The notes under the pieces were generated by a model. The model worked only from the letters and a program-made list of their open reading frames with translations. It searched no databases and had not been told where the DNA came from. A stretch of 64,000 nt of DNA from Nemertoderma westbladi (taxonomy: Eukaryota > Animalia > Xenacoelomorpha): positions 38,798-102,797 of the forward strand of contig JAUCBJ010002827.1 of assembly GCA_032718475.1 (NCBI GenBank), read 5' to 3'. The position numbers were made by a program, and so were the translations under genes. Positions 28,455 to 54,980 of the stretch are shown in pieces; within the stretch, counting starts at the first letter, position 1, and the number at the start of each line of letters is the position of its first letter.

Positions 28455-28591
28455 GTTAGCGGTTTGGTTTATATGTCCAATATAGTAATATGTAATCTCA
28501 CATTAACATCTTTAACCATTATTATTACTAACAGGTAGTTGTGCAGAGCGAACTGGTTTCTCATCCTCAGAGATTGTTTATTAAGCGATAA

Positions 28592-28963
28592 AGGCCTGTT
28601 TACACGCGGCAACTTGTAGAGCAACTTTCTCTGCAACTAGCAACTTTTTTGGAGCAACTTAATTTAATCGCTGTTTACACGTGGCAACTTTACCAGCAAC
28701 TTGGCCGGCAACTTTTAGAGCAACTTGGCTAGTTTAAATGTAAAATAGTGGGTCATTTTATCTACTAGCTAGTTTTTGATAATCTAATTTGATTATCCCG
28801 CTTTAATTCGCCAAAGCAAATTCCTTCAAGTTGCCGTAATCGTTGAGTAACTGTTACGGCAACGTTTTTACGTGTTTACACGGAGCAACTTGATCGGCAA
28901 CATGGGTTGCTCTACAAGTTGCCGAGAAAGTTGCTCTCAAAGTTGCCACGTGTAAACAGGCCT
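28592..28963. mobile_element. PIF/Harbinger (Tourist-like) MITE
   Basis: TIR AGGCCTGTTTACACG; TAA TSD on both sides; subterminal GCAAC repeats. Confidence 0.85.
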
Positions 28964-29082
28964 TAAGCCGTCTTGGAAAAAAAACAAGAAATTAACATTT
29001 GGTACAGTTTTAACTAACCTAAAGTGCCGTATTTCATTTTTTCAACCTTTGAAAATTATTTAATATGATTAGCTGGGTTCTG

Positions 29083-30126
29083 GGACAGTTTAGCCCTCCG
29101 GACAGTAGTCCCCCGGACAGTTAGTAGCCCCCTGGACTGTAGGCCACCGGACAGTAGTCCCCCGGACAGTAGTCCCCCGACAGTAGTCCCCCGGACAGTA
29201 CCCCTGACGTAGCCCCTGACTGTAGGCCACCGGACAGTAGTCCCCCGGACAGTAGTACCCCCCGTGACAGTAGTCCCCCGGACAGTTAGCCCCCTGGACT
29301 GTAGGCCACCGGACAGTAGTCCCCCGACAGTAGCCCCCCGTACAGTTAGTAGCCCCCTGGACTGTAGGCCACCGGACAGTAGTCCCCCGGACAGTTAGTA
29401 GTCCCCCGGACAGTTAGTAGCCCCTTGTACTGTAGGCCACCGGACAGTAGTCCCCCGGACAGTAGTCCCGCGGACAGTAGCACCACCGTACAGTTAGTAG
29501 CCCGCTGGACTGTAAGCCACCAGACAGTAGTCCCCGGACAGTAGTCCCGCGGACAGTAGCCCACCGTACAGTTAGTAGCCCCCTGGACTGTAGGCCACCG
29601 GACAGTAGTCCCCCGGACAGTTAGTAGCCCCCCGTACAGTTAGTACCCCCTGGACTGTAGGCCACCGGACAGTAGTCCCCCGGACAGTTAGTAGCCCCCT
29701 GTACTGTAAGACACCAGACAGTAGTCCCCCGGACAGTAGTCCCGCGGACAGTAGACCACCGTACAGTTAGTAGCCCCTGGACTGTAGGCCACCGGACAGT
29801 AGTCCCCCGGACAGTTAGTAGCCCCCGGACAGTAGTCCCCGACGTAGCCACACGTAGTCCCCCGGACAGTTAGTAGCCCCCTGTACTGTAGGCCACCGGA
29901 CAGTAGCCCCCCGGACAGTAGTCCCCCCGTACAGTTAGTAGCCCCCGGACAGTTAGTAGCTCCCTGACTGTAGGCCACCGGACAGTAGTGCCCCCTGGAC
30001 AGTAGGCCCCCGGACAGTAGTCCCCCGGACAGTAGCCCCCGACGTAGCCCCGGTTAGTAGCCCCCCGTACAGTTAGTAGCCCCTAGACTAGTAGCCACCA
30101 TCCGGACAGTAGTCCCCCGGACAGTA
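29083..30126. repeat. GC-rich intronic satellite built from CAGTAGTCCCCCGGA / CAGTTAGTAGCCCC / CTGTAGGCCACCGGA modules
   Basis: Direct inspection. Confidence 0.9.
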
Positions 30127-30547
30127 ATAGACCCTGGCCGTTTTTGAGTGTTTTTTTAATTGGTAAATGTTCTAGAACCTTAGTAGATATTTTTTTTATG
30201 GTAGCTAGTGTTTTTTGAAAATTATTTTGGTCATTAATATATTCCGCAACAGTTTAAAGCTGAAATATCCATCGAAAAATTCTTCAAAAACCACCAGCTG
30301 TTCTAGAATATTCACCAATACCAAAAAAAACATTAAAAAAAATATCATATTCTGGAATTTCTGTGATATAAAATCCCGGGGGGCTACTGCTATAATACTG
30401 ATTCCAGAAAACAGCGATGAAATACATTCCTTGAAAGATAATTCAGTAATTCGAACTTTGAGGTAATTTTTGGCTCGTAAAAGGAGCAGTTTGCCAGAGT
30501 TGCAGAGCTCATCGGGTTTCTTTATGTAAATTGTTATTGTATTCCAG

Positions 30548-31903
30548 GATTGTTCTCTCACCGTACGCGCCTTAATGTTCGACCCGTTACCCCGCCCACG
30601 CACCGTCTCCTGCCTCGCCTTCGACGAGTCCGGCCGTCCGGTGTCCGGCGACTCGGACGGGAACCTCGTCCAGTGGGATCCCGTCTCGTTGCGGCCCCGC
30701 ACCTACATCGTGGGGGCGCACCCGGGGGGCGGGGTGTTCGCGGTGCTGCCACTCCCGGACGGGGGGCTGCTAACCGGGGGCGGGAAGGACGGCCGCGTCT
30801 ACCAGTGGAGTCTGGACGCCCCTAGCGGGGAGCCCCTGCTACTGGTCGCGCTCCCCGAGACGGCCGGCGGTGTCCGCACGCTGCTAGCCGAGTCCGTGAG
30901 TAAGTCGTTGTACATCGGGACAACGAGAAACCTTATTGTAACGGCGAGTAGCGGGGATGACTCTGGGTCAATGTCCCTCTCGCACGGGACAAAGTCGCAG
31001 GGATCAGCGTCCCTCACGCACGCGACTAAATCACTCACACATGGGACAATGTCCCTGTCCCCTACGCCGTTAGTTCTGGGACACAGCGAGGAGTTATGGG
31101 GCCTCGCGACTCACCCAACTCGCCCCGAGTTCGTTACCGGCGGGTTGGACGGTTTGGTAGCGGCGTGGGGGCTGCGGGACGGCGTCCCGCTACCGCTGTG
31201 GACCCATCGTCTAGACGACGGGGTCACCTCGGTAGGGTTGCACCCGCACTGGGACATAGTCGTAGTCGGTACACAGAGCGGCCGCTGGATGGCCTTCAAC
31301 TCCAACAACAGAAACCTTTTAGCAACTCATTCGGATTCCTCCCAACAAATAAACGTTCTAGAATTCTCACCGGATGGTTGTAGACTGGCGGTTGGTTGCC
31401 ACGATAAACACGTTTATGTTTACTCCGTGTTGGACTCCGGAAAACGTTTCGGTAAGGCTGGACGATGCGTTGGGCATACGGAGTACGTGGCGGCCGTTGA
31501 TTGGTCGGTTGATTCCGCGTATATTCGGAGCTCCGCCGGGGATTTAGCGTTGCGGTACTGGTCGGTGGCGCACTGCCGGTTGGTTGCGGCCCCCGAGAGC
31601 ATGGTGGGCACCGCGTGGGCCACGCAGCGGTGTCTGGTGACCCGGGATACGGTGGGGGTGTGGGCCGGCGACGGGGGCGAGGGGTTGACCTCCGTGGACG
31701 CGGGGGCGAACGGTTGGCTGCTGGCCGCGGGCTCGGACGCCGTCCGGTTGTATAGGTTCCCGTGTCCGAGTGTCCGGGCCGAGTGTCGGACCGCAGGCGG
31801 ACACGGGAGGGCGGTGACCGGTGTCCGGTTCCTAGCCGGGGGCTCCGGGTTGGTCTCCATAGGGGAACGTTCCTGTGTTCTATACTGGAAGATTGTCACT
31901 TAA
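30548..31903 (+). CDS. EML1: EML exon 3 (WD40/TAPE repeats to stop)
   Basis: AG acceptor 30546-30547 in frame; LLTGGGKDG, LYIGTTRN, GHSEELWGLATHP, FSPDG..LAVGCHD, CVGHTEYVAAVDWS; TAA at 31903; AATAAA at 32091. Confidence 0.92.
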   Translation, partial: DCSLTVRALMFDPLPRPRTVSCLAFDESGRPVSGDSDGNLVQWDPVSLRPRTYIVGAHPGGGVFAVLPLPDGGLLTGGGKDGRVYQWSLDAPSGEPLLLVALPETAGGVRTLLAESVSKSLYIGTTRNLIVTASSGDDSGSMSLSHGTKSQGSASLTHATKSLTHGTMSLSPTPLVLGHSEELWGLATHPTRPEFVTGGLDGLVAAWGLRDGVPLPLWTHRLDDGVTSVGLHPHWDIVVVGTQSGRWMAFNSNNRNLLATHSDSSQQINVLEFSPDGCRLAVGCHDKHVYVYSVLDSGKRFGKAGRCVGHTEYVAAVDWSVDSAYIRSSAGDLALRYWSVAHCRLVAAPESMVGTAWATQRCLVTRDTVGVWAGDGGEGLTSVDAGANGWLLAAGSDAVRLYRFPCPSVRAECRTAGGHGRAVTGVRFLAGGSGLVSIGERSCVLYWKIVT

Positions 31904-37637: not shown

Positions 37638-38753
37638 TCACGGTAGTGGTGTTGTGCTAACTGTAGAACAATCACCGTAAGTACCACCTCCTGGAATCAA
37701 CCAAACAATGGTACAGCTGCAAGGGAGTATAGAGCAAATCGCATCTGCATGTTCCGGGCAGTAATTGGCTGAACATATGTCCATCCCGCATGGAAGTGGT
37801 GGACATGAGGTAGTAGTTGAGGGGGGTGGACCTACCCCCCCTGTTGACGTTGGCGGTGCAGCTATTGCTGTTGTCGTTGATGGTGGTAATGGGGGTGTTG
37901 GTGGTACTGTACTGGTTGTAGTGCAATCGAGGTAAACACCACCTAATGGATTCATCCACATTATGTCGCAAGTGCATGGAATTATTGTGCAAACCGCATC
38001 GAGGTGCTCGGGGCAGTAGTTTGCACCGCATATGTTCCATCCACAAGGAAGCGGTAGACATGGTGTAGTTGTAGTCGAGGATGTTGGTATAGGTGGTGTG
38101 CTTGTTGTAAACACCCAAGGAGTGCAGTCCATGTACTGAACCCCAAAATCATCGAAAAATTCAGCGAAACATCCATTGCAGTAATTTCCTTGACAAATCG
38201 CTGTGGGATGTTCTGGGCAATAGTACAAGGTGCAAGGGTCTGCGAAACAAGGTGTGAGTAAGCACGAAGTTGTTGTGGGTGGGCCTGTCGATGTAGTTGT
38301 TATGGGGACTGTTGCTGGTTCACAATCGACAACCTGGTTTAGACCGTTGTAGAAGAACGCATGACATCCACCGCAGTAGTTCGGTATGCACTGCGCTTTC
38401 GGGTGAGCTGGGCACACAGCGTAGTCGCATGGGTTGACGAAACACGAGACTAGAGGAACTCCTGGGGGGCATGGGCCTGCATTCCCCTTGCAGTCAATGA
38501 TGTTGCCGTTTTCATCGAAGTATTCGGCGAAACAACCTCCGCAAAAGTTCGGTTTGCACCGCGCTTCCGGGTAACCATGGCACTGATTTAAACGACATGG
38601 ATTACCTTTGCATCTAACGAAAGGAACACCTGGTGGACACGGTCCTTTTATTTTATGTTTCAAAGATTGTGGCCTTCTATCTCTGGGCAATTTCCCAGCA
38701 TTAAATGCAGGCAAAAAGAGAGCGAAACTTAATAATAACAAAAAATAATTCAT
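37638..38753 (-). CDS. Secreted cysteine-rich repeat protein with Thr/Pro-rich mucin-like linkers (371 aa, intronless)
   Basis: Signal peptide MNYFLLLLSFALFLPAFNAG from ATG 38753; five Cys modules (C..C...PC....CP.hP.A.C..N.CGGC.A.F.....DC); AATAAA on minus at 37554-37559. Confidence 0.8.
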   Translation of the reverse strand: MNYFLLLLSFALFLPAFNAGKLPRDRRPQSLKHKIKGPCPPGVPFVRCKGNPCRLNQCHGYPEARCKPNFCGGCFAEYFDENGNIIDCKGNAGPCPPGVPLVSCFVNPCDYAVCPAHPKAQCIPNYCGGCHAFFYNGLNQVVDCEPATVPITTTSTGPPTTTSCLLTPCFADPCTLYYCPEHPTAICQGNYCNGCFAEFFDDFGVQYMDCTPWVFTTSTPPIPTSSTTTTPCLPLPCGWNICGANYCPEHLDAVCTIIPCTCDIMWMNPLGGVYLDCTTTSTVPPTPPLPPSTTTAIAAPPTSTGGVGPPPSTTTSCPPLPCGMDICSANYCPEHADAICSILPCSCTIVWLIPGGGTYGDCSTVSTTPLP

Positions 38754-39355
38754 TTTAATGAATAAACTGAGTCTCTGCCCGTTGGAATATCCGATTAACA
38801 ATGATACTTTTCCATGAGTGTGTGATGTATTATAATAATTTAAGTTGATTTGATGTCGCAGATGTATTAACATTTACTCACGGTTATTTAGTCTCGCAGA
38901 AACGCACTTATTTTTGTATGGAAATTATAATCTACTCTTAGAGAAACTCCACCCAGCAAAAACAACCCGCGGTTTTATTGTGATTCGAAGACAATGTAAC
39001 AATTATTGACCCGAAATATATGGTCAGATTAAGTTAGGGATTTATCGATTGTGATTCGATTCGAATATATGGTGAGAAAGTCACATGTGGTTGCTTTAAA
39101 ATTAATTTAAACAATGAGGATTTTATAAAATATATAATTCATATATGAGTCACTGGGGAAGCAGTGTGGGAGTGGTGTGGCGGTGGTTCCATGATCCCCC
39201 TCCAATTACAATAAATCATACAGCACTGTCTGTAGCTAGGCTATGGCACACATTCCACTGCTTCGAGAATTATTGACTGACACAGATTGTTTTCAGTGAT
39301 TTAGATTTTCCATTAGCTTTTGTCTTTTCTGAAGCCAATTGCCAATTGAATCTCT

Positions 39356-40548
39356 TGTAAAAGCTTTTGCTGAATTGTCCGGTTATTTTTCCTTATTTTT
39401 CCCGTAAAATACTCTGTAGTTGGTTTACCAGGCATAAAAAGGCCGTGTCCTTGCTGTACTGGTGTTTTAGCGGACATAAAAGCTATTTCTTCTGTATTTG
39501 TACTTTAGAGGACATAATCCGTAATTCCGTGACGTAAAAGCTCGATACTCTTGAAAACAGTGTCGCTACCATGACGACGGCTAGCAGCTGATATTGCCAC
39601 GTTGACGTTTCTTTGTTCTCTCGTTGTTCAGGTTGACCAATCAGAGCGTTTGTTGTCTCTGTGTTGGAGGTGTATACAGAAACTCAGTAGTTCAGTGTTA
39701 TGTTTTGCCCAGAGCCTAAGAACCGGCTTTTGGCACCTCCGTGTTTTCAGTTTTTAGTCCTACACTAGTAGGCTTAATTATAAGGACATATATCCGTTAT
39801 CTGCATATTGCACACTGATGTCTGATGTCTGCATACTGCATACTGCATACTGTGTAACACTGTGCATACTTTTATATTGTTATACTGCTATTTACTGTCA
39901 GTTCTTCATAATATGGTTGATGAATTATTATATTTGGAATAACGACAAATAACCCCGAAAACCCAATATTCTTGATATACCGAAGGTAAGAGAGAAAGGT
40001 TACAGATAAATGATTGCGACCTATGTTGAGTGGTTTGAAGTGAATCTAATGTTATTTGATAGACCCTACATGATTCGGTCCGTGTTCCTTTTATATGTGA
40101 CTAAAATCAGTGAAGATCGGCAGATCAGTGTGCAGTATTGTGCAGTATTGTGTATGAGTGAGACTGATAACGAAGCATTTCCTAAAGAATGCGCCATATA
40201 TGTGAATTATAACTAAGCCATATCGTTGTGAGTAGTTTAAGTCATAACTCTTTTTATATAGATAGAGCGCCACGTCCTAAAGGAACTGTTAATATTTCCC
40301 GAAGGTGAATAATATTGTCAGAGATTATATAATACTGTCAGTCGAATAATACATTAGGCTTACATAGCAATAAGATTAAGCCGTCGAACCCAATCTCCCG
40401 GGTATATCCAACGGGTGAATGATCGCGCACAGATTGGTTTCGACTAGTGTAGTGAATTAAATACTTGTCATAGACTAAAGGTGATTTATTATCTAGAAGA
40501 CATCCTAATTTGGCGGGTTAAACTGCCAAAGGTCTGAAAGCGCGAACA
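39356..40548 (+). repeat. 5' LTR (1193 bp)
   Basis: Near-identical to 52466-53683. Confidence 0.95.
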
Positions 40549-40560
40549 ATAACGGATATA
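40549..40560 (+). promoter_or_regulatory. Putative self-priming primer-binding site
   Basis: ATAACGGATATA directly after the LTR is the exact reverse complement of LTR positions 39789-39800 (TATATCCGTTAT); no TGG tRNA-type PBS. Confidence 0.6.
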
Positions 40561-42042
40561 GCTTCTTTATTGCAGTAAGCAATAAAGTTGAAAGTACCGG
40601 TCAACCGGTAAACCTGAACGGTACATCTGTAGGTCAGTAGGCCCAACTGTCCTAACCGGTACTTCCGTATAAGTACATTAGTATTATTCGACTTGATTGT
40701 TGTATACCGGTAGGCTGTTTAAGAGATTAGGGACTGTACACCCCTTGTTTCTTTTGGAGCTTACTTATTTCTGTCAGTTTTATTTATTTGTAGGCCAGTA
40801 TTGAACAGAAGGCGTGTAAGCCTGATCAGATTGTACAGACGATTTGTAGGCTGAGCTGTTGTCTGATTGCTGTTAAGTCCGAACGAATTGCAGTGTGTGT
40901 AGATCACCTGTCCGATTAAGTACGGTTAGGAAGTAGGGGCAGCGAACGCTGTAAGGTAAACCCCCAACTAAAGAATAAGTCGCACTACTGGGTTAGAGCG
41001 CATACTCCCTAATCATTTCGGAGTCTGCATATACCGTAGTTTGTTTAGGCTTGATGGTAGTCTGTCAGTGTTCGGTCTGTATTTTGTTTGAGTAGTTTGT
41101 ACGCGTAGCGTAATATTTATTATTCAGAGTTTATGCGATTATCCGCAACATTCATTCCCCAAGTTTGTTCCTACAATAATTGTGTTTGTTATACATACCG
41201 CTATAGTTAAATTAACCCCGGTACTACACGGGCTGCATGGCGTAGGTAAAGACTGGTGATTTTGTGCATCGGTCACTCCAGCAGATGCCGTGGTTCTTTT
41301 AGCTGTTCAAGTATATTTAACTACTGATTATCTGTTGTACAAGTACTCGTACCTAATTTAGGGTTTAGTGTACAGTGCTTTCCGAGAGTAATTAGTGTAG
41401 GCATTATATTTGTGTTGTAAAGTGGTTAATAGGCACGTTCGATTAGCTCTATTAACTTCTAGGTAGGAACACTCCGTGATACATAACGTAGAACCTATAG
41501 CGATACGGCTATAGCAGGTCGTCAGGCGGTGGTATTTTCCTATCTGGACAACGCAGTGTATTTACTACTACTTATTATTTCAAATACCGCATTACCCTGT
41601 CCGTTGTAATAACCAGAATTCTAACCCTTTGTTAGGCTGGTTTGTAGACTTCTTGTAAAATTACCCTAAAAATTCGTATTTTGTGTTTTTTGTAAATTTT
41701 TGTGTTTATTTAGAGATCGTAATCTCAACCCGAATTGTACGTAATTTGTAGTATTAAGTAACTTAGGTAAATTAGAATTATTTGTTTTAGTGTCCTATAA
41801 GTAACACTTCACTGAAAGCGCACCGCTTTGTGTAGTGATTACTCCCCAGAAATAATAACATTTATTTCAAACATTGACAAAACCCATTAAAACGGGTATA
41901 TAATAATCTTCTTTATTTCAGCATATTGCAGCCATATGGTACAGTAAAAGATAAGATATATATTAATATTTAGCACAGAGTATTATAGTATAGTAAAATT
42001 TAATTAGGACGTAAAATAAAATAAGTTAAATTAGTAATTGGA

Positions 42043-45000
42043 CTATCTACATAATGTTATGAAGTTACTATATAATACTGAGACTGGGCGACACACCAAG
42101 CGAACAGTAGAGATAATTGAGTTTATAGATTTATCAACACGTATATGCAAACTATATAGAGCATGTCTATGTATTTCAATAAGTGATTTAATACCTAGAT
42201 TAACAAGCATAGCACTGGCGCTGTTAGGCAAACCAGTTTCAACATTAAATAAAGGTAAACGAAATAAATTTCTGACTGTTTTGTTTATGGCGGTATGCAA
42301 CTTATTAAAAACAGATTTCGTATAATATATTTTAGACCAGAGAGCATTACAATAAATAGTTGAGCAATATGTAGTATAAAGAAGTAACTTGATATGATTC
42401 GAGCAATTGGCAAACTTACGTATTAACATGTTAGCCCATCCATAAAAACGACGCGTCTGTGCACCAATATCGAGGTCATCAGAAAAATCACTTGATATAA
42501 TATGTCCTAAATACTTAAAGCTCTCCACGACTTTAAGTGGTTTTCCGTCCAAGATTATCGACGCGAAATCAAAATGTTTTCGCATCTTACTGCGCATAAA
42601 AACGCACTTTGATTTAGCACCATTAAATGTCATACCGTTAGCAGATGCAAACTTGCTACAAATGTCAATGAGCTCTTGTAGAGCAATAGGTGTAGAGGCA
42701 ATGATACAGATATCATCAGCATATATTAAATGGTTAATGCACATATCGTTTAAGGAACATCCAAGTTCAGATTTACAAAGATCAATACTTAGTTGATTAA
42801 TAAACAAATTAAAAAATTTAGGGCTAAGCGGGCTACCCTGTCTGACTCCATTGGAGCATGTGAATGGTAAGGATTTAAAACCGTTCCATAGCACGATCAT
42901 GGTTTGATTTGAATACATGAAGATAATAACCCTAATAATAAAAATCGGTACTTTACGTTCAAATAATCTAGAAAATAATTTAGAATGATCTACATTGTCG
43001 AATGCTTTGGAAGCATCTAAGAAGGATATATACAAATTAGAACCATTAATTAAGTAATAATTAATAATCTCTTTTAGCGTATAGACACAAAGTTCAGTCC
43101 CTAGTTTGTCTTTGAAACCGAATTGGTTATCTGTTGTAGCCAGTAAGCAATCAATTCGCCTTAAAATGAACAATTCGTATATTTTACATATTATATTTGA
43201 AACCGCAATAGGACGGTAGTTACTCTTGTCTGTAGTATCACCGGTTTTATCTTTAATAACCGGTGATATATAAGACGATATCATACTAGGAGATAAAAAA
43301 CCATGAATATTAAAACCGGTAAAAATTAATGAAAAAAGCACCATAATCCGTTTACTGGCATAAATAATATGTTCCGCGGTTAGGTTGTCAGGACCGGACG
43401 CTTTATTTCTATCCAACTTCCGAATGAGCTCAGCGATTTCGTTTGGCGAAACTACCATATCCTCGGAAAAGAGAATCTCTTTTAAGTACACTGCCTCAGC
43501 TATCGGTGGAGGTACTGAAGGGTGCACATGCGGATCGGAATTAGGTATCGTTGGGGGCACCGTAGGGGGCACCAGCGATGGTGCGGTAACCGTCGGAGAC
43601 ACCGAAGGGGGCTCCGATGTCGAAGGGGGCAGCCAGGTGGGAACCGCACCCAGCGGATTCGCCCAGGTTGAGGTTGGTATCGAAGCCGAAGTGGGCGCAG
43701 GCGGGGGCACTGAACCCGATGGGGGCGTCCCGGTGGGCACCGAAGTCGAGGGGGGCGCCCAGGTGGGTACCGAATCCGCAGGGGGCGCCCAGGTGGGCAC
43801 CGAAGCCGCAGGGGGCGCCCAGGTGGGCACCGAAGCCGCAGGGGGCGCCCAGGTGGGCACCGAAGCCGCAGGGGGCGCCCAGGTGGGCACCGAAGCCGCA
43901 GGGGGCGCCGAAGTGGGAAGCGAAGTCGAGGGGGGCACCCAGGTGGGCACCGAAGCCGCAGGGGGCGCCCAGGTGGGCACCGAAGCCGCAGGGGGCGCCG
44001 AGGTGGGAAGCGAAGTCGAGGGGGGCACCCAGGTGGGCACCGAAGCTGCAGGGGGCATCCAGGTGGGCACCGAAGCCGCAGGGGGCGCGGGCGCCGGAGT
44101 TGTTGCCGAATTAAATATAGTGCGATAATGGAGTTCCCACATGTTAGCAATGTTCTGAGTGCCAGATGCTCCACCGATTGTAGTCGCTGGAGGGGACTTT
44201 ATCGTGTTGTCCTTCTTGACATTTTGCCAGAACTTATAACAGTTTTTATCCAATAGGCCTTCCGCTAACTTATCGCAGCGAATTGTTTCGGAGGTACGTT
44301 TAATAAGGCGCAGCTGACGTTTAAATTGTGCCCTCGTTGAGCACATTAAGTGGAACAGTGGGCCGTTCCGGGGGCTACCGTTCGCACGCCAGTCGAGGAA
44401 ACTACAGCGGGCCATGCGATGGAGGTGGCTCACCTGGTCATTCCACCCAGGAACAGATGTTTGGGTTGGACTACAGGCAGGTTTCGGGATACTAACTGGG
44501 ATATTACCCGTTACTGATGAATGTAGAGCAGACACAACTCCATTATATAACGAGTTTAACTCACCCTTATGAGTTGGATTATTGCAAGATGGGTCCCTAC
44601 AGGATAGGGCTTCATGTGGTATAATAATTTTAGCCAGTTCGGTGTCGGTAGAAGCTGAGTAGCAGCCGAGTTTAAACGCTGATGCTGAGTTCCAGAGTGG
44701 TCGAGTAAATGGAATCGGAATCGACGGCTCCAGTTTGTCCAGGGGGATGATACGTTCACAGTTTATTTCAACACACATTGGTAAATGGTCGTCGAATACT
44801 AGTGAGTAGTTTATTACTATATCTGTTATTCTATGTTTCATCGACCCGGTGCAGACGCAGTGATCCAGCCATGAAGTAGATCCTTGGGCAGCTCCAACGA
44901 AGGTAAATGATTCCGAGGGTAACATGAGTGTGTCCAGTATCATGAGACCTGACTCCATACAGGTATTAGAGAGCTCACGAAAAAATGGACGACTTGGGTG

Positions 45001-45471
45001 AGCGTTGAGATCCCCTAGTATGCATACATTATTGTTATCTAGAGTCTCCGCAATGGTAACTATCTTGGCTAAATAATCGAGATAATCGTCAGCGTTATCG
45101 GCACACTCATAAGGTAAGTATGCATTAATTATATAAAACTCCTCACCGGTACCAGGCGGAGTAACTTTAATTATCATTAGACGAGGGTCAGATTTATCAA
45201 CAATTTCAATACAATCATCACCGAAGCTTTTATTCCATAGGACTCCGAGGCCACCGTGTGGCCTTCCGATAAGGATATCGGATTCCAAGTCAACAGGAGA
45301 GGAGCCTCGCCCGTAATGATTAATGGATAGCGTATCGAGAATCCCCAAGTCCTGTTTGGTAAGGAGAGTTTCTTGTAATAAAATTATATCGTTAGCCTTC
45401 GCGAGTTCAGAAATCACGTATCTACTTGATAGAGTCCGAACGGAGTTTGCGTTATAGGTCGCGATTCGCAT
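42043..45471 (-). CDS. LINE ORF2: APE endonuclease and reverse transcriptase
   Basis: [30 protein letters not shown] (APE); [38 protein letters not shown] (RT); uninterrupted. Confidence 0.93.
43606..44095. repeat. 30-bp GC-rich minisatellite in frame within LINE ORF2 ([10 protein letters not shown])n
   Basis: Tandem GGGGGCGCCCAGGTGGGCACCGAAGCCGCA units. Confidence 0.92.
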
Positions 45472-46019
45472 ATATATTATATATATATTATAAATCAAAT
45501 CTAACGATTTATAAATAGTAGGCCTACCATATAACCATTAGGTCTCAATATCAGTTGGACTACTGCTCAAATAACGGTAATAAAGTAAGTAAAGTAACAA
45601 AGTAACCCTAAAGTTCAGAAATTCAATTATTTAAAATAATTGATATACCGGTATTTACGATAGGCCTATTATCTTTATTTCTGTAAATTTAGGCTGAAAT
45701 TATACCGGTACTTGTAATTAATTCTAGTCCAGAATTATATATACTACAAATTGTAAGCTGTATACCGGTATTCCCGATAGGCCTATTATATATTTATATA
45801 TATTTGTGCTAAAATTATACCGGTATTCTGAGATAAACCTAGTCTGTAATAATACTTATATATACTATAAGCATACCGGTATTCTAATATATTATATATA
45901 TATCACGCTACACTGAGTAGCAGTATCGGTAATTAATTACTAGGCTAGCAGTTAATACTGAATTACTAGACTTGCTTAGACTGTAATATAGCAGTAGGCA
46001 TTCAACTGTACAAACAAAA

Positions 46020-49000
46020 ATGTGTGACACAAAACGGGCACTGTCAGATAGTCTTTTGGAAGGTGTTAGAATCAGCCTTAGACTTGGACAGGGTCTTGAA
46101 AGGAAGATGGCAGAGGCAATGGCAACAGCAGAAGCGAAAAGAAAGGCGGCAGAGGCAATGGCAACAGTAGAAGCGGAAAGAAAGATAGAGACACCTGTAC
46201 TCCCAGAACCTGCCTATAAATTCCCTTTGTACAGTACTAAATTACCTGTGCCCAGTAGGACTGTTCCCGAGTCCGAACCCATCCTGGACGCCGAGCGAGA
46301 TATTAAGAATTTATCGCCCGTCGTCTCTCGCTCGCCCGCTACAACGTTGGCGACTCCCGCTTCGGCGGTTGAGTGGGTAGCTGAGGGACGACGGGAGATG
46401 GGTCTCCTGCTCGAGCAGCTGAGGGAACACTGTTTGTGCTCCTCTCAGCAGGTCCGGGAAATGGAAGAGACTGTTCAGCAGCTCAAGGGAACAGTAAGGG
46501 AAAGTAGGTTAGAGTTGCAAAAGGTGCAGCAAAGTATCGCGTTAGAATGCGATAAATTAGTGAACATACAAAGGGGTATAACACCACCCCCTGTAACAAT
46601 GTGTCAACCCGTTAGGTCTGAAGTATTTCATGCGCAAGGTGTGGAGCCTACATGCATCTATACTGCTAGTGAAGTAGAAACTCCTATAGTAAACCCTATT
46701 CAGGGTAATTATAAACCTGTTGATAATAATATTCCATATAGACCTGATCATAATCCGAGAAATTTATATACCGATAATTCTATATTCAATAATACGATGG
46801 CTCAAGAAAGTTTTACGCGTCAAATGGCTAGAACCGAAGCCCGGCAAGCGGTAAAGGTGGGAGAGATCGTCAAGTTCAATGGAGATGAGATGAAATGGTT
46901 ACCTTTTAATGAATATTATAAAGATAACATACAGAACTCTGTACTATCTAACGGAGAGAAACTTAGATTCCTCATCGAATGTTTGGAAGGACCTCCCAAG
47001 TCAATGGCGTTAAAATTTATTGGACATCCAGATGGATTAAGACAAGTTTGGGATACACTAAACATCAGGTATGGTAATAGGACTAACATAGCTAGGTATT
47101 TATATGCGAAATTAATGGCGCCCCAAAAGTTTCTTAGCAGCGGGATTATAGAGTTTTCCGATGAGATTCAGGAGATCTGTAGACAACTAGATTGGTTAGG
47201 TAAGTCTCATGAATACCAGAATTCTATGGTTGTAGGAGCCTTAGCATCTACTTTGCCCAAGGGTGGAGTAGGTACACGCTGGGACAAGAAGGTGTTATAT
47301 ATGATGGAACAACAACGACGAGACCCTACCATGACTGATCTCATGTCATTCTTAGATAGAGAAGTGAAATTACAGCTCCTAAGGCAGTCCAGAGAGAAGA
47401 CATTGGAAAACAAGGTAAGTGAGAAACCCGTTTCTAGGAGAAGGGTAACACCAGTATGTTATACCGACGACAGTAAAAGCCAAACTTCTCAAGGAGAGGA
47501 CAGCGGGAAAGACACTGACAGATCTTATTATGTCAATAAAATGCCTAAAGATCAGGTAAGTAAATCCGAGTCTCGACCCAATGACAGAAGGGAACCGGTA
47601 CAAAAAACCCTTCCTACGTCTCCTAAAAGAATTCAGGTGAGAAAGCCCGAGGAAAGAACAAGTGTGCACCACATAGCACAGGTTAAAGTAAGTAACATCA
47701 AGCCGAAATGTGTGCTGTGCGACGGGCCCCACCGTTTAAATGTGTGTGATAAATTCCTGAGGAAATCACTTGAGGATAGACGTGAAGTCATGTGGGATAA
47801 GCGGTTGTGTTATAATTGCCTCAGACGAGGACACCAACGGCGAACCTGTAACTCCGACGCAAGGTGTGCAAAGTGCGGTGCAAAACATCATATCTTGTTG
47901 CACACGGAATTCGAACGAAACAGCCCGAGTCAGGTAAGTGAGTCCGAACTACATGTCCAATTCAGTGATGTGAACGACACTGATCAATCTGAGATGGAAG
48001 GATTCTATACGGACGAGTTCTCCGACCAAAACGAATCCTGTTACCTAATAAACACCACCGCAGTGTATCGAGCACTCGTGTATGAGAAAGACACAGACAG
48101 CGACCTTACCTTAACTACTTCCGATCAACAACCATCTTGGAAAGCGCCAACTTCCAATATAGGAATCCGAGAATTTCCTGTAGTCCAGTTACGGGTCCAC
48201 GGACCTCAGAAGAGCTATATAGTGAACGCCCTCCTGGACTCCGGTAGCACAGGAACATTCATCGATAAAGAACTAGCCGAAGTCATCTTTGCTGGACAAC
48301 CCAAGTTCCGAACCAAGCTAAACATGTCAGGGATCATGCAGGTTTGGAATTCTACTGTAGCTGCCGACTATTATATAGGTGAGTTGTCCACCCCCCAGGA
48401 CGAACTAGGAGAACATAGCATCAGGTCAGTGAAAATGGTGGCTATAAAGAACTTCGCTACTACTCAAGCAGACCTTTATAATTGGGACGAGGATGAGAGC
48501 ATCCAACATCTTAACATACCTCGATTCCAGACTGATTATCCTGGAGTGCAAATACTCATCGGCCAAAACGCGCATGAGGCGCTGGAGACATTAGAGAAAC
48601 GGCCTGCTCAACCGCAGCCACTACAGACCTATGCGGTAAGAACTAGAGTAGGTTGGTACCTTACTGGACCTTCCCGTAGAACGCTCAGGGAAAGACTGCT
48701 TCAAGATCGCGTCTGCCAGGTGAGTGAATGGGAAGATGATACTAGTGAGGGAGACGACCCAACTGAGGGAACACCACACTCCTCAGATAATGACAATCTT
48801 AGCTCCAATGTAGATCAATTGAGATATTGCCCCAAGAAGTTTAATCCAACGGACATCGCTTCCAGAGGAGCAACTCCTCAAGAACTGACAGATACTATAG
48901 ACCGGTTAGGTGAACCCGACTTCCTGAGTAAGGAGAATGAATGGCCTCCCCATCTTACTCCGACTGAGATTAGACCAGCCAAGGGAGCGGAGAAAGTTAA

Positions 49001-49448
49001 ACCTAAAACCCGGACGGGTGGAGCGGAGTTATTTGAACCCGGGATAGATCTGTCGGTATTGCATATTGCCAGGGATGACGCCGTGGATCTGGACCTCCCC
49101 ACCGCGAGTGGATCCTTCATGAAGATCAGAGAGAGCGATTGGAGCTCTGGAACATCAGACGTCTCGCAGGGACTCTCACCTCTCCTGCAGAGAGCGACGG
49201 ACCACTATAGCTCCTGGAATCGGCTTTGTGACGCCGTCATATACTTTGAGCGATGTTTCTATCGTCACTATTCCAGGACGAAGAGGAAACCTGAAATTGT
49301 ATTCAGGATGCAGCGACTCAATCACCCAGTCGGTCGTTTGTGTTTACCGGAAGGGAATGGAGGACTCTCCGGAAACTGTGGAAGGCAAGATTCTCTTCCC
49401 ACGACCACCTCCCTAATCCTTCAAACATCTAGGGACTCCATAACGTAA
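46020..49448 (+). CDS. BEL/Pao Gag-protease polyprotein; RT, RNase H and integrase deleted
   Basis: KFNGDEMKWLPF..EKLRFLIECLEG..WDTLNIRYG; CVLCDGPH..C, CYNCLRRGH..C, CAKCGAKHHILLH; LLDSGSTGTFI; TRVGWYLTGP; then directly LRYCPKKFNPTDIASRG (post-RNase H motif). Confidence 0.9.
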   Translation: MCDTKRALSDSLLEGVRISLRLGQGLERKMAEAMATAEAKRKAAEAMATVEAERKIETPVLPEPAYKFPLYSTKLPVPSRTVPESEPILDAERDIKNLSPVVSRSPATTLATPASAVEWVAEGRREMGLLLEQLREHCLCSSQQVREMEETVQQLKGTVRESRLELQKVQQSIALECDKLVNIQRGITPPPVTMCQPVRSEVFHAQGVEPTCIYTASEVETPIVNPIQGNYKPVDNNIPYRPDHNPRNLYTDNSIFNNTMAQESFTRQMARTEARQAVKVGEIVKFNGDEMKWLPFNEYYKDNIQNSVLSNGEKLRFLIECLEGPPKSMALKFIGHPDGLRQVWDTLNIRYGNRTNIARYLYAKLMAPQKFLSSGIIEFSDEIQEICRQLDWLGKSHEYQNSMVVGALASTLPKGGVGTRWDKKVLYMMEQQRRDPTMTDLMSFLDREVKLQLLRQSREKTLENKVSEKPVSRRRVTPVCYTDDSKSQTSQGEDSGKDTDRSYYVNKMPKDQVSKSESRPNDRREPVQKTLPTSPKRIQVRKPEERTSVHHIAQVKVSNIKPKCVLCDGPHRLNVCDKFLRKSLEDRREVMWDKRLCYNCLRRGHQRRTCNSDARCAKCGAKHHILLHTEFERNSPSQVSESELHVQFSDVNDTDQSEMEGFYTDEFSDQNESCYLINTTAVYRALVYEKDTDSDLTLTTSDQQPSWKAPTSNIGIREFPVVQLRVHGPQKSYIVNALLDSGSTGTFIDKELAEVIFAGQPKFRTKLNMSGIMQVWNSTVAADYYIGELSTPQDELGEHSIRSVKMVAIKNFATTQADLYNWDEDESIQHLNIPRFQTDYPGVQILIGQNAHEALETLEKRPAQPQPLQTYAVRTRVGWYLTGPSRRTLRERLLQDRVCQVSEWEDDTSEGDDPTEGTPHSSDNDNLSSNVDQLRYCPKKFNPTDIASRGATPQELTDTIDRLGEPDFLSKENEWPPHLTPTEIRPAKGAEKVKPKTRTGGAELFEPGIDLSVLHIARDDAVDLDLPTASGSFMKIRESDWSSGTSDVSQGLSPLLQRATDHYSSWNRLCDAVIYFERCFYRHYSRTKRKPEIVFRMQRLNHPVGRLCLPEGNGGLSGNCGRQDSLPTTTSLILQTSRDSIT

Positions 49449-52400
49449 CAACATATGGAGTGGGTGTGTGACTCTATTATTTTATATTATTTTATTATTT
49501 TTATATTTCTGTATGTATTACTATGTAATTTTATTATAATCGTTTTCTTTAATTTTATTCAGAGAATGTTATTTTAGCGATTATTTAGTAGATTAGTGCA
49601 ATATATATTCGCGTTTATTACTTAATTACGTATATATTATATTTAATGCGACGGCAAGAAATAATTCTTTTCCTCTTTCCTTACTGCCCGTATCATATTA
49701 TAAATACGTGACTACAGTAAGATGAAATGTCCGTACTTATTAAAGTACAATAAAGCCACTACTATATTCAAGTATTATTGGTAGGCAGAGTATTAGGAAT
49801 GCAAAGTTCAGATCCTCGTGTCTCGGCTAAACCAAGCTCTGGGTAGACCTTGGAAACGACTTGCCTCTTCACACTGACATTGCTTCGTGCGATATTGCTC
49901 TCATACCGTATATTAAATAATACATATAGTAGCGTGATGTCCCTTTAACAGTAGCGTATAACGCAAAATAAATCTGTTAAACCCTTTGACCATCTGTAAT
50001 TCTAGTCGATTAAGATATCGCGGCACCCACCGATATACTTGAAAGACAAATTCTAGAATCAGTGGTTAACGTCCCCAGACAAGTTCTGGAATAAATTGGT
50101 GCCCATCTCAAATATTAATTATTTAATATTTGCAAATCTAATAAATCAAAATCTGTAAAATTCAGATCCTTCAACAATTCTAGTCAATTAAGATATCGTA
50201 GTATTTACCGATATTCTTAAAAAGACAATTGTCATAGAATTAAGGATCTTGTGTCCCCAGACATATTCTAGAATCAAAATATGTCCATTTAATTATCAAA
50301 TAATAAAATTTCAGGGAATAATTTAAATTCATGCCTTTTAATGAATTTAATAAATTGCCATTTTTACGCAATTTATAACATTCCCAAAAATTCCATTAAT
50401 TAATAGATCAAGGGAGCGGAGATTTATCTTATTATGCCTATGAGTGTGCGAAAGTCTCCCAAACATAGTCAATAGCCGATAAAATTCATAAAGTCATGTA
50501 TAAAACAGAACATTGACTATTAAAGAATACTATTAAATAACATCCCAGATCTGTATGCATTGGAATCACCCTAATTCTACCGCTAGCTTTGCATAATGTC
50601 ACCATAGCAACAACCACGCTAGAATTAGAATTGAGTTAAAAGAACAATAGAAAGCTTGTCCCATTGAATAGCATAGGGAATAAATAGCGCACTACTAGTA
50701 TCCAAGGATACATAATAATACAGTGACATTCTGGAAGGCATTGACTAACGGACAAATGGCCCGAATGTGTGTAATTTGTGACAAGTTGTGTGTGTGGTAT
50801 TTGTGAGTTTATAGGTGAATGTTACTGCTAAAGTGTGTTTACAGTAGCTAGTCGCAATCGTAAAAGTAACCTAACTCTCCAAGGAAAACCTGAAGTACAT
50901 CTAAGCCTTTGGGACGGACAGTTGAGTGACTTGTGCCGGTTGTCGTTGTCGTTGTGCGGCTACGTCGTTGGCGAAAGTACAGCGGCGACGACACATCGGC
51001 GCTGAGGATCTCGTACTGTCCGGGGGTTGATTGGGGTAGGCAGCGACGCTCGCTAGCCTAAATATAAACTCATTATAATATGGATAAACTCATATAGCAG
51101 ATATGGTTGAGTTGATAGAAGATGGTCTTGGTATCGGGGAGCGATATACTCTACTTTTACAAGCGTTTGTTGATAGCTTAATACGCGGCGACGTTAGTCC
51201 AACTGCTGCGGAGGACGATGGTCGTTATATCGAACCGCCAATGTCCCAAGAGCAGCTCACGCGTGAGTTGGACTATAGAAAATTCGCTGCTCGATATACG
51301 CAGCGTAATGGTACGTATATGGGCTTCTTAACTACTGGTCATCCTATCGATTTACACAATACGGACTATGTCGACTATATATCCTGCCCAGCGGAGTCGG
51401 AACCATAAACTGAAATTCGAATGCGAAAATTCTATTCGAAATCGACTCGAAAGAAAAGACACTAAAGAAACAAATGGACGCGGTAACTCCAACGTATATT
51501 TGGAATTCTTGATAGAAGCATTGTAACAACAAATAAATATCACCCGCGTTTACCCTACCAGACGTGCGTCTTTGGTATTATTACGATAAATGCCCTAGAC
51601 CCAACTAATAAACGGAAAGACATAAACATCCACGTAAACCGAAACTTGTTGACGTATCACCTATGCTCACTCGGCTCGAACGATCCTGGAGTAAACCTAC
51701 GATCAGAGTCCCGGAATACTCGGTCAAACCTCCTCATTCCTTAGTTGGACCTCAGACCTGCGATCCTGGTGGTGTCGCGGATCCTCGCGGACTGTATTCA
51801 CTGTTCAAAGATCTAGTGCTACCCTAACAATTAATCGGTAACACTCCGACAGTGATTTCTAGCTAGCCGCCCATCTTACCTAGCCGGATTGTGACGCGGA
51901 CATTTAATATCGCCGTTTAACCCTTACCATCGTCCCGGCTTGACACGATATAACCTGTCACCAGAGTGGCGGAGAACGTTGTACCAAACGAGTTAAACGC
52001 TATTCTACAAAGATCAGAAAGGAAACCTACGTTTGTTCAGATAAACGTAAGTTATAACAGCAAGTCCAAGCGATAAACGAATTGTCTTTATCTCAGTTTG
52101 ATTGTGAAATCCAGAATCTCTAAGAAGATATCGCACTTAGACAACCCCATTCTCTGCGAGAGTTTTTGGATGAACGTATCCAGCTACGAGCGGAGGAAAA
52201 TCAGCTCGAGGAGAAGCATATCGAAATGGCGGATACCCCAACCATAATCCTACACCTTCTGATGCAATCATATTGCACCCTTCACCCAGGATTTATAGCC
52301 CTCCTAGTAAAGTGGCTCCCCCAAGGAAAAAAGGACTCTTGCTAGCCTCAAGAAACTGCGTAAACGCCGTCCGCGCAAAGAAACTAACTGTTTAGAGTAT

Positions 52401-52465
52401 CTTTATGTTTTAGAAACTGTGATTTTTATATTTTATAGACTGAAAATCCCATTTTCTGGGAGCGG

Positions 52466-53683
52466 TGTAAAAGCTTTTGCTGAATTGTCCGGTTATTTTT
52501 CCTTATTTTTCCCGTAAAATACTCTGTAGTTGGTTTACCAGGCATAAAAAGGCCGTGTCCTTGCTGTACTGGTGTTTTAGCGGACATAAAAGCTATTTCT
52601 TCTGTATTTGTACTTTAGAGGACATAATCCGTAATTCCGTGACGTAAAAGCTCGATACTCTTGAAAACAGTGTCGCTACCATGACGACGGCTAGCAGCTG
52701 ATATTGCCACGTCGACGTTTCTTTGTTTCTTTGTTCTCTCGTTGTTCAGGTTGCCCAATCAGAGCGTTTGTTGTCTCTGTGTTGGAGGTGTATACAGAAA
52801 CTCAGTAGTTCAGTGTTATGTTTTGCCCAGAGCCTAAGAACCGGCTTTTGGCACCTCCGTGTTTTCAGTTTTTAGTCCTACACTAGTAGGCTTAATTATA
52901 AGGACATATATCCGTTATCTGCATATTGCACACTGATGTCTGATGTCTGCATACTGCATACTGCAGTACTGCATACACTGCATACTGTGTAACACTGTGC
53001 ATACTTTTATATTGTTATACTGCTATTTACTGTCAGTTCTTCATAATATGGTTGATGAATTATTATATTTGGAATAACGACAAATAACCCCGAAAACCCA
53101 ATATTCTTGATATACCGAAGGTAAGAGAGAAAGGTTACAGATAAATGATTGCGACCTATGTTGAGTGGTTTGAAGTGAATCTAATGTTATTTGATAGACC
53201 CTACATGATTCGGTCCGTGTTCCTTTTATATGTGACTAAAATCAGTGAAGATCGGCAGATCAGTGTGCAGTATTGTGCAGCATTGTGTATGAGTGAGACT
53301 GATAACGAAGCATTTCCTAAAGAATGCGCCATATATGTGAATTATAACTAAGCCATATCGTTGTGAGTAGTTTAAGTCATAACTCTTTTTATATAGATAG
53401 AGCGCCACGTCCTAAAGGAACTGTTAATATTTCCCGAAGGTGAATAATATTGTCAGAGATTATATAATACTGTCAGTCGAATAATACATTAGGCTTACAT
53501 AGCAATAAGATTAAGCCGTCGAACCCAATCTCCCGGGTATATCCAACGGGTGAATGATCGCGCACAGATTGGTTTCGACTAGTGTAGTGAATTAAATACT
53601 TGTCATAGACTAAAGGTGATTTATTATCTAGAAGACATCCTAATTTGGCGGGTTAAACTGCCAAAGGTCTGAAAGCGCGAACA
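52466..53683 (+). repeat. 3' LTR (1218 bp)
   Basis: Differs from the 5' LTR by two short tandem expansions (25 bp in total) and about three substitutions seen by eye. Confidence 0.95.
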
Positions 53684-54980
53684 TCTCTCAAGTCACTTCT
53701 TGCTTCAAGTCACTTTATAGAAGGCCTATGTCTGATCATATGAGAAGTGGCTACTGGCCGGGCCCATTGAAACCATCCTATTGCACGTTTATTTGATAAA
53801 TGTAACGGTCCAAATGTAACGGATAAATGTATTGGGCCTTTGGGGGTTGGGGTTGCCTTTTTGGCTCTTGTGGTCGTAACTACGCATGAAATATATACTT
53901 TTCCGTAAATTTTCGGAAATTTCCTGAAAAACATAATTTCGGAAAACGCACATCCCCCCTATATTAGACTAAGAAATTTGAAGCATGTACCTGTTTATAT
54001 CATTAGAAAAACATCTGACCAAAAAATGGAAGAATCGAAAGTGAAAAAAAGGTTTTTACAAGTGTCAACATTTGAAATCTATCCAAACTTGGTACACATG
54101 TTGTTTGGCCAATGTTTAGACATTTTCCAAGTAGAATTTACGTGTGGCCTTCGAGAAGCTAAGATAAATGCAGTTAATTAGGTAATTAGTTAATTGCGGT
54201 AAAAAAAAAGGCATTTTCAAGCCTGTATTTTAGAGGAAATTAATTATTTTATCGTATAAGATTTCAATAATTATACTTAAAAGATATGCAGATGTTTTAA
54301 TTGATCTAAAGTAATTAAAACGACATTAACTGCTATTAGTTATTGGCCAGCAGATTAGAGTTCGCTGATAGAATTCTTCTAGGAAGTTTGGATTATTTAT
54401 ATTCCTAGCTAGCCAGTAGTGGCATCGTTCTTTGCCTGCCTGCCTGACTACTCCTAAACTACTCCTGACTCCTGACTACTAAAATAACGTGCCACTGTAA
54501 CCTGCTCCTTTCCCTAAATTGAGAATTTAACATTGAGGCGGGATATTAATTCGCCAAGGCGGGTTTTGCGTCGAGTTCCCCCCCCCCCCCCCCCCCTGTC
54601 TCTATTATATTTTCCACGAATGCAGGGTCCATATTTCAAAGAAGATAAGCAGATAAGTAGATTTTCGTAAATAAGATCGTGCTTAGGCCAGTCACCCTTG
54701 TTGGGAGATTTATATTAGCTTTTATAAACATTCTTCCCATAGTTTTTCGAAACATTATATTATCATGATTATTAGTTGGCAATTTACCATTATACATAGG
54801 CTTACTTTAAAGTATTATATTTGTCACATTGTTACATTAAAATTAACAGCTGATTTATCTATTGAGGTTTACTACTCTTTAGGCCTACCATTTACTCTTT
54901 TGATATTCATTGTTGTTTTTTTTGTTGTCGTAAAACTTTCAATAATATATTGCCAATATGTATAGGCCTACTTATACTAC

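What the first reader, a model, noticed from the sequence alone, without database searches (positions are those of the whole stretch)
39781..40570. Candidate tRNA-independent self-priming in a BEL/Pao retrotransposon
Seen: the 12 nt immediately after the 5' LTR (40549-40560, ATAACGGATATA) lack the TGG of a tRNA PBS. They are the perfect reverse complement of LTR 39789-39800 (TATATCCGTTAT; also 52907-52918 in the 3' LTR). Pairing can extend past an internal loop (TAAGGA with TCTTTA, one G-U). The 3' end of the LTR segment would pair with the first base after U5, so extension would start exactly at the LTR terminus. A hairpin TTTGGCGG/CTGCCAAA lies near the U5 end. Known: in Tf1/sushi-group Ty3/gypsy elements the first ~11 nt of the transcript anneal to a PBS abutting the LTR and are released by RNase H as the primer. 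I know of no report for BEL/Pao. Inference: an independent origin of self-priming. A rough hand estimate puts a chance 12-mer match in a 1.2-kb AT-rich LTR at well under 1 in 1000.
Basis: partly seen in the sequence, partly recalled or inferred. Interest (0 to 1): 0.82.

Follow-up and report, generated by a model that had tools for sequence, protein, structure and literature searches.

The report
Self-priming signature in BEL/Pao retrotransposon
A recently inserted, defective BEL/Pao jumping gene has, where a host tRNA normally lands to start DNA copying, 12 bases that match a stretch of its own terminal repeat, and many distant relatives keep such a match with different letters, so these elements likely start copying with a piece of their own RNA, as the yeast element Tf1 does.

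Summary
Observation confirmed. Bases 40549-40560 abut the 5' LTR (39356-40548), hold no TGG and are the exact complement of 39789-39800 (chance 2-6e-4). The element is a young, RT-less BEL/Pao copy of an abundant family, with a LINE nested inside.

New here: two more duplexes directly flank this site (4/200 and 2/200 shuffles), giving the three-duplex 'pretzel' of Tf1. Family variants keep 5 of 6 affected pairs.

In distant BEL/Pao loci whose LTR ends were fixed independently, 7 of 9 show a self-match of 11 nt or more, against 0 of 82 cross-family pairs; 0 of 9 have TGG. Most relatives form the match across a splice junction.

Self-priming is likely (0.72) but no RNA start, cut or cDNA was seen, no compensatory change occurs within this family, and a TATAAG at 39779 could put the start downstream. 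Unlike Tf1, the primer probably lies about 100 nt inside the RNA. Ten literature searches found no BEL/Pao report. The scan noted this before in other genomes.

The parts
39351..39355 (+). 5' target-site duplication TCTCT
   Evidence: same 5 nt at 53684-53688
39356..40548 (+). 5' LTR, 1193 nt, TG...CA
   Evidence: matches 52466-53683 with 3 mismatches in 1192 aligned bases and 2 indels
39637..39681 (+). CCAAT box (39637) and a weak TATA-like stretch (about 39672): candidate promoter upstream of the primer (inferred)
   Evidence: CCAAT from motif scan; the TATA-like stretch read by eye; spacing resembles relatives; not tested on RNA
39779..39784 (+). TATAAG: alternative TATA box that would put the start near 39810, downstream of the primer site
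   Evidence: counts against the best reading if used
39789..39800 (+). putative self-primer, exact complement of the site after the LTR; ends in A-T and is followed by C, as in relatives
   Evidence: pair probability 0.84-1.0 for RNAs starting at 39750-39789
39801..39821 (+). arm of a helix with 40122-40145 that follows the primer directly; region very variable in the family
   Evidence: depth collapses at 39818-39845 and joints start at 39801-39803
40340..40352 (+). 13-nt perfect inverted repeat with leader 40681-40693
40358..40381 (+). LTR arm pairing with the bases just after the primer site (40561-40580); covers the likely poly(A) hexamer at 40369-40374
   Evidence: -18.7 kcal/mol, 2 of 200 shuffles; 72-78% of family depth has the canonical hexamer here
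40420..40435 (+). LTR arm pairing with the last 18 nt of the LTR (40531-40548)
   Evidence: -17.0 kcal/mol, 4 of 200 shuffles
40509..40530 (+). U5 hairpin, 8 bp
   Evidence: a family variant at 40515 turns its G-U pair into a Watson-Crick pair
40549..40560 (+). primer-binding site without tRNA signature, offset 0 from the LTR end
42043..45537 (-). nested LINE (endonuclease + RT ORF, 1164 aa) in the leader; exact ends not fixed
   Evidence: Pfam RVT_1 and Exo_endo_phos; no clear TSD
45987..49448 (+). BEL/Pao ORF: Gag (DUF1759), zinc knuckles, DSG protease, then a short RNase H C-terminal remnant; RT and integrase absent
52458..52465 (+). polypurine tract next to the 3' LTR
52466..53683 (+). 3' LTR, 1218 nt, with the second copy of the primer sequence at 52907-52918
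53684..53688 (+). 3' target-site duplication TCTCT

Best explanation
This is a non-autonomous BEL/Pao retrotransposon whose RNA is predicted to fold so that LTR bases 39789-39800 pair with the 12 bases right after the LTR, and it likely primes its own reverse transcription from that duplex instead of from a tRNA. Shown by sequence: the LTR pair, TSD, PPT, Gag-protease ORF, loss of RT and integrase, and the 12-nt complement in register. Predicted: three helices stacked along 40531-40580 (LTR end with 40420-40435; primer site with 39789-39800; leader with 40358-40381), the pseudoknotted 'pretzel' of Tf1. Inferred by analogy with Tf1: RT/RNase H supplied in trans by an autonomous partner would cut after 39800; the freed 3'-OH would sit on base 40549, and copying would begin at the LTR's terminal A. 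Strong-stop DNA would run back to 39801, and R (39801 to about 40395, poly(A) hexamer at 40369) would serve strand transfer. Inferred from relatives: transcription likely starts about 100 nt upstream, so the primer would be the 3' end of a longer capped piece. The leader duplex would also hide the poly(A) signal in the 5' LTR only. The intron-less form here would correspond to the contiguous type seen beside the spliced type in relatives.
For: (1) Exact 12-nt complement at offset 0, chance 2-6e-4, no TGG. (2) Pair probabilities 0.84-1.0 for RNAs starting 39750-39789. (3) Both flanking duplexes begin at the very base next to the site and beat shuffles (4 of 200, 2 of 200; 5 of 153 and 18 of 153 against other internal stretches), as described for Tf1 in PMC10085805. 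(4) Of 6 listed family variants on paired positions of the surrounding helices, 5 keep the pair (three G-U to Watson-Crick, two Watson-Crick to G-U). (5) Blind scan of 44 of 81 fetched BEL/Pao loci: 27 of 44 reach 11 nt or more against their own LTR, versus 8 of 132 cross-family controls; 19 of the 27, in 13 families, survive inspection. (6) With LTR ends fixed by LTR-copy divergence: 7 of 9 loci (4 of 6 families) reach 11 nt or more, 0 of 82 controls do, and 0 of 9 show TGG. (7) In a hand-picked set, 17 families including this one carry 15 different site 10-mers; all 17 start with purine-T and the base after the primer is C or G in all 17, and this element fits both.
Against: No RNA start site, cut or primer was observed. 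TATAAG at 39779 could start transcription downstream of the primer. Pair probability falls to about 0.64 for a start at 39700 and 0.22 for a start at 39356. No compensatory change at the two sites was seen within the family; the lack of variants there (none among the 40 of 63 shown) is not significant alone (about 0.15 by hand arithmetic). One common variant (40380, 64-68% of depth) breaks a pair of the leader duplex. The flanking duplexes are not general in relatives (2 of 30 tests at 5 of 200 or better). The relatives are only 20-30% identical in Gag-protease, and the tree leaves this element on a long branch outside both them and the other BEL/Pao proteins, so their evidence is by analogy. 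Host tRNA fragments were not compared. Three of 21 curated rows stay under 10 nt.
Confidence: 0.72

Rival explanations
1. The pairings are structural or regulatory (hiding the 5' poly(A) signal, packaging, or a conformational switch), and a host RNA such as a tRNA half or another small RNA is the real primer.
For: The region has several long-range perfect repeats (10-13 nt), so the 12-mer is one of a set. The leader duplex covers the likely poly(A) hexamer. Half-tRNA primers exist in Ty1/copia (PMC6317226). ICTV describes BEL/Pao as primed by tRNA-Arg or tRNA-Gly (PMC8742986).
Against: No TGG. Read by eye, the site's complement does not form an anticodon arm with a canonical loop. Fifteen different site sequences in 17 families each match their own LTR, which a fixed host RNA would not explain. 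Register at the LTR end (offsets 0-4) and the shared end motif point to priming.
Confidence: 0.13
2. Self-derived priming, but not from the 5' end of the same RNA: transcription starts near 39810 from the TATAAG box, so the primer sequence exists only in the 3' LTR copy (52907-52918) or in a separate LTR transcript, and pairs across the genome or in trans.
For: TATAAG at 39779-39784 is the only TATA-like match near the site in the motif scan. In spliced relatives the intron survives in most LTRs, which suggests that primer and template can be different RNA molecules.
Against: Cutting in the 3' U3 would destroy that RNA's R. In relatives with a TATA match upstream, the primer lies well downstream of it. 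A CCAAT box and Inr-like motifs lie upstream of the primer.
Confidence: 0.1
3. Chance complement in a decayed copy whose true primer site was lost.
For: AT-rich, weak helix: 66 of 396 internal 21-mers pair as well by energy. Scans of many windows will meet 1-in-2000 events.
Against: The copy is young (3 mismatches between LTRs, intact TSD). The family shows no variant above about 9% share at the site. Two adjacent duplexes and the end motif shared with relatives would each need further chance.
Confidence: 0.05

Closest known systems
Tf1/Tf2 of Schizosaccharomyces pombe and the Tf1/sushi group (Ty3/gypsy chromoviruses), self-primed reverse transcription
   Same: 11-12 nt site next to the LTR's CA, complementary to the element's own LTR; no tRNA site; predicted three-duplex pretzel with both site-adjacent stretches pairing to LTR sequence downstream of the primer (PMC10085805; PMC7175516); a U5 hairpin.
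   Different: BEL/Pao Gag and protease, not a chromovirus. The primer is probably internal rather than the first 11 nt. The loop is about 750 nt. Most BEL/Pao relatives form the primer across a splice junction. This copy has no RT of its own.
Ty1/copia TAR lineage (Houba, Osr-1) and Tcn1 clade, predicted self-priming
   Same: Self-priming predicted from sequence complementarity only (PMC6317226).
   Different: Other superfamilies, in plants and fungi; no spliced primer in the passages read.
Belpaoviridae / BEL-Pao elements as defined by ICTV
   Same: LTRs up to 1.2 kb, DUF1759 Gag with zinc knuckles, DSG protease, short PPT (PMC8742986).
   Different: ICTV gives an 18-nt site for host tRNA-Arg or tRNA-Gly; this element has none.
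Cer7 of C. elegans (BEL/Pao), recalled as proposed to encode its own tRNA-like primer
   Same: Element-derived primer in a BEL/Pao element. This is recalled from memory; one search found no paper on it.
   Different: A tRNA-like sequence near the 3' end rather than an LTR segment; no tRNA-like sequence was found in this element.

Membership tests
BEL/Pao (Belpaoviridae) | LTR pair with TG...CA ends, TSD and PPT | tested here: met
BEL/Pao (Belpaoviridae) | BEL-type Gag (DUF1759, zinc knuckles) and DSG protease | tested here: met
   PF03564 E=2.6e-13; 25 of 28 homologues carry PF03564 and the other 3 carry PF05380
BEL/Pao (Belpaoviridae) | RT, RNase H and integrase in PR-RT-RH-IN order, RT phylogeny | tested here: not met
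   RT and integrase are deleted; only an RNase H C-terminal remnant remains. A non-autonomous derivative; RT placement is impossible.
BEL/Pao (Belpaoviridae) | 18-nt site for host tRNA-Arg or tRNA-Gly 3' end | tested here: not met
   no TGG in 40549-40568
Tf1/sushi group (membership) | Ty3/gypsy chromovirus proteins | tested here: not met
   proteins are BEL/Pao; not a member
Tf1-type self-priming (works like) | site at the LTR end complementary to own LTR over 11 nt or more | tested here: met
   12 nt, offset 0
Tf1-type self-priming (works like) | two further duplexes flanking the site (pretzel) | tested here: met
   predicted only; 4 of 200 and 2 of 200 shuffles; not general in relatives (2 of 30)
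Tf1-type self-priming (works like) | primer is the first ~11 nt of the transcript | not testable with these tools
   no raw RNA reads served; spacing in two relative families suggests an internal primer
Tf1-type self-priming (works like) | RNase H cut at the primer's 3' end releases the primer | not testable with these tools
   needs RNA or cDNA end mapping
Tf1-type self-priming (works like) | compensatory change between site and primer | tested here: inconclusive
   none within this family; present across distant BEL/Pao families
half-tRNA priming (copia, Bianca) | site complementary to a host tRNA 5' half | not testable with these tools
   no host genome or tRNA set held; judged unlikely by eye only

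The most novel reading that the evidence does not exclude
A broad branch of BEL/Pao retrotransposons evolved tRNA-independent self-priming on its own, with a twist absent from Tf1: the primer is an internal segment about 100 nt from the cap, cut at an A-pyrimidine end. In most families it is assembled only by host splicing of an intron in the LTR. This family is an intron-less form with a full Tf1-like pretzel whose leader helix also masks the 5' poly(A) signal, so one RNA fold would couple priming to read-through of the 5' LTR.
Probability: 0.45. Interest if true: 0.85.

Novelty: new variant of a known kind. Interest (0 to 1): 0.68.

Why it matters
BEL/Pao elements are described as tRNA-primed, with replication 'poorly understood' (ICTV). 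If self-priming holds, a third LTR superfamily in animals has reached the Tf1 solution, which bears on how often and from what the tRNA-free route arises, and implies that BEL RNase H can cut an RNA-RNA duplex. PBS-based LTR annotation would miss or misclassify such elements. The spliced form in relatives would tie retrotransposon priming to host splicing. The window's copy gives exact, testable coordinates for start, cut and pairing in a very abundant family.

Tried and rejected
- No genome is held for this window, so sister and autonomous families could not be collected.
- Sequencing runs: no RNA holder listed; all runs laid were contigs, so no start site.
- Run X7 (another organism label) laid 0 contigs.
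- The exact LTR-end pattern gave 0 matches in metagenome contigs.
- Viral contigs: 0, 0 and 1 locus; the one locus lacks the 5' end.
- Protein searches found no close relative (mostly about 25-37% identity).
- Gag-protease trees could not place the element.
- The second BEL/Pao element in the window has no LTR pair and no self-match over 7 nt at its candidate LTR end, so it is no comparator.
- A splice-junction primer for this element was tested and gave nothing better than the contiguous 12 nt.
- Flanking duplexes as a general BEL/Pao feature: not supported (2 of 30 tests).
- In one search, 6 of the 27 best hits were spurious (L010, L061, L064 inside Gag; L012, L071 unrelated inverted repeats; L036 a tie at a wrong place) and 2 doubtful (L002, L025). 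37 of 81 loci were left out (too little upstream sequence, Gag start missing, or the viral locus).
- ARAGORN found no tRNA in the window.

Full report
OBSERVATION. The 5' LTR is 39356-40548 and the 3' LTR 52466-53683, both TG...CA, flanked by the duplication TCTCT, with a purine tract before the 3' LTR. The LTRs differ by 3 mismatches in 1192 aligned bases and 2 indels. The 12 bases after the 5' LTR (40549-40560) are the exact reverse complement of 39789-39800 (and of 52907-52918) and of nothing else in the window. Expected chance is 2.3e-4 to 6.1e-4, and 4 of 11,907 internal 12-mers have such a partner. No TGG lies within 20 nt of the LTR end. By energy alone the site is unremarkable (66 of 396 internal 21-mers pair as well): the signal is the register and the perfect match.

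WHAT THE ELEMENT IS. ORF 45987-49448 carries DUF1759 Gag (E=2.6e-13), zinc knuckles and a DSG protease, then runs into a short RNase H C-terminal remnant. RT and integrase are absent. An antisense LINE ORF (42043-45537) is nested in the leader. All 28 homologues carry BEL/Pao domains; no close relative was found there or among 1.84 billion representatives. The family is very abundant in its host: 27,596 contigs of run X1 lie on 2.45 kb. So this is a young non-autonomous BEL/Pao copy that needs RT in trans (inference).

RNA STRUCTURE. For RNAs starting at 39750-39789 the 12-bp helix has pair probabilities of 0.84-1.0; for a start at 39700 about 0.64, and for 39356 about 0.22. PMC10085805 (passages) describes the Tf1 'pretzel': a central primer duplex plus two duplexes between each site-adjacent stretch and LTR sequence downstream of the primer. 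I tested this. The last 18 nt of the LTR pair with 40420-40435 (-17.0 kcal/mol; 4 of 200 shuffles). Bases 40561-40580 pair with 40358-40381 (-18.7; 2 of 200). Against other internal stretches the ranks were 5 of 153 and 18 of 153. The three helices are contiguous along 40531-40580.

FAMILY VARIATION. In one search (39762-40592; runs X1 and X3; X7 laid nothing) 63 places vary at 3% or more. Forty are shown, down to about 9% share, and none lies in 39762-39945 or 40516-40592. That is not significant for the two 12-mers alone (about 0.15 by hand), and no compensatory change at them was seen. I gave the 14 listed variants nearest the helices; 6 fall on paired positions. Three turn G-U into Watson-Crick pairs (40374, 40434, 40515), two turn Watson-Crick into G-U (40126, 40692), and one breaks a pair (40380, 64-68% of depth). 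At 40369-40374 most family depth (72-78%) has the canonical poly(A) hexamer, which the leader duplex would cover in the 5' LTR only. Depth collapses just after the primer (39818-39845), with joints at 39801-39803, so the conserved block ends at the predicted primer end.

RELATIVES. With an alignment led by the RT of the window's second BEL/Pao element I fetched the best 80 of 266 metagenome loci. Earlier scan notes (unchecked AI notes, used as a lead only) suggested also testing splice junctions. A blind scan of the 44 of 81 loci with enough upstream sequence (33 families) gave a match of 11 nt or more between a post-CA site and the locus's own LTR region in 27 of 44, against 8 of 132 cross-family controls. 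On inspection 6 best hits were spurious and 2 doubtful, leaving 19 loci in 13 families.

The stricter test used 9 loci (6 families) whose LTR end is fixed by divergence of two LTR copies. Seven of 9 (4 of 6 families) reach 11-15 nt, the other two 8 nt. None of 82 cross-family pairs reaches 11, and none of the 9 has TGG.

In a hand-picked set of 21 rows (chosen after seeing these results, so not blind) 18 reach 10 nt or more: 12 across a GT-AG junction and 6 contiguous, this element among the latter. The 17 families carry 15 different site 10-mers; all 17 begin with purine-T and the base after the primer is C or G in all 17. That script did not force the motif, but L010 was first found under a filter that did. 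This element fits both rules. In L016 and L055 the donor or primer end lies 143 and 136 nt past a TATA match, so the primer would be internal. Against generality: flanking duplexes stand out in only 2 of 30 tests on 15 relatives. Gag-protease trees put this element on a long branch outside both the self-matching loci and the other BEL/Pao proteins, with self-matching loci nearest by path. Whether it shares their origin is open, and I had no named reference to assign a lineage.

MECHANISM. Shown: anatomy and complementarity. Predicted: the three helices. Inferred from Tf1 (PMC7175516, passages; PMC5341516, passages): RNase H cuts after 39800, the 3'-OH on 40549 primes copying from the LTR's last base, and R runs from 39801 to about 40395. 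The main risk is the start site. TATAAG at 39779 would give a start near 39810, downstream of the primer. A CCAAT box at 39637 and a weak TATA-like stretch near 39672 would give a start near 39700, matching the spacing in relatives. No RNA holder was listed, so this is open. Odds: self-priming in cis 0.72; structural role with a host primer 0.13; self-derived primer from the 3' copy or in trans 0.10; chance 0.05.

LITERATURE. Ten searches of the held library listed no paper on self-priming in BEL/Pao. Read: PMC8742986, whole text (tRNA-Arg/Gly site); PMC6317226, passages (self-priming in Tf1/sushi and Tcn1, predicted in copia TAR); PMC554778, passages and one section (Sinbad; no PBS or tRNA mention). 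PMC3118150, PMC2774666 and PMC6238403 were term searches without hits for PBS or self-priming. PMC3601003, PMC5443660 and PMC3286476 were passages with nothing on BEL priming. No supplements were opened. Levin's original papers and Butler 2001 were seen only as references. Subscription papers and Repbase notes are not searched. From memory only: C. elegans Cer7 was proposed to encode a tRNA-like primer, a different kind of element-derived priming; one search found no paper on it.

VERDICT. The feature is real and most likely a self-priming signature. It works like Tf1 but is not a Tf1/sushi member; it is a BEL/Pao derivative that fails ICTV's tRNA-site feature. New variant of a known kind, not found in print by these searches, and already noted by this scan in other genomes. 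Interest 0.68.

Noticed in passing
window 2020-2140 (-) and about 2400-14050 (-): A second, frameshifted BEL/Pao element (Gag 9152-11455, PR-RT 7365-9227, RH-IN 5794-7104, extra ORF 2399-4150 without Pfam match) has no LTR pair in the window. At its 3' end a tRNA-like stretch is followed directly by a hammerhead-like motif (Rfam HH9, E=0.022, below the family cut-off). A 16-nt stretch near 14007-13992 is complementary at 15 of 16 to the tRNA-like anticodon arm (blastn E=0.67; weak). It may be a SINE/retrozyme insert or an element-encoded primer.
   Followed up: partly
L003, L010, L015/L023, L016/L020/L022, L032, L037/L042, L046/L048, L051, L054, L057, L063, L074 (5' LTR ends): Metagenome BEL/Pao elements whose site after the LTR pairs with their own LTR only across a GT-AG junction (10-15 nt); L006, L017, L026 and L043 show a contiguous match.
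   Followed up: yes
L055 6918-6928 versus L057 136-854: In one family the 3' LTR of L055 lacks the intron and carries the primer contiguously while L057 has it: possible intron loss through reverse transcription (or a mixed assembly).
   Followed up: partly
window 39986 and 40305 (+): Two splice-donor-like sites in the LTR, both preceded by the same six bases: possible introns in R/U5 downstream of the primer.
   Followed up: no
window 42043-45537 (-): Intact-looking LINE ORF with a 30-nt tandem Pro/Thr-rich repeat (43611-44148) between endonuclease and RT.
   Followed up: no
window 49450-52450 (+): About 3 kb between the ORF and the PPT, with a 106-aa ORF (51088-51405) without Pfam match.
   Followed up: no
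window 25138-31903 (+), 60021-61268 (+), 37638-38873 (-): Host genes: EML-like (HELP and WD40), a WASH WAHD-domain ORF of 415 aa, and a Cys-rich repeat ORF of 411 aa without Pfam match.
   Followed up: no
window 54981-57159: 676-nt unit repeated about 3.2 times at over 99.7% identity.
   Followed up: no
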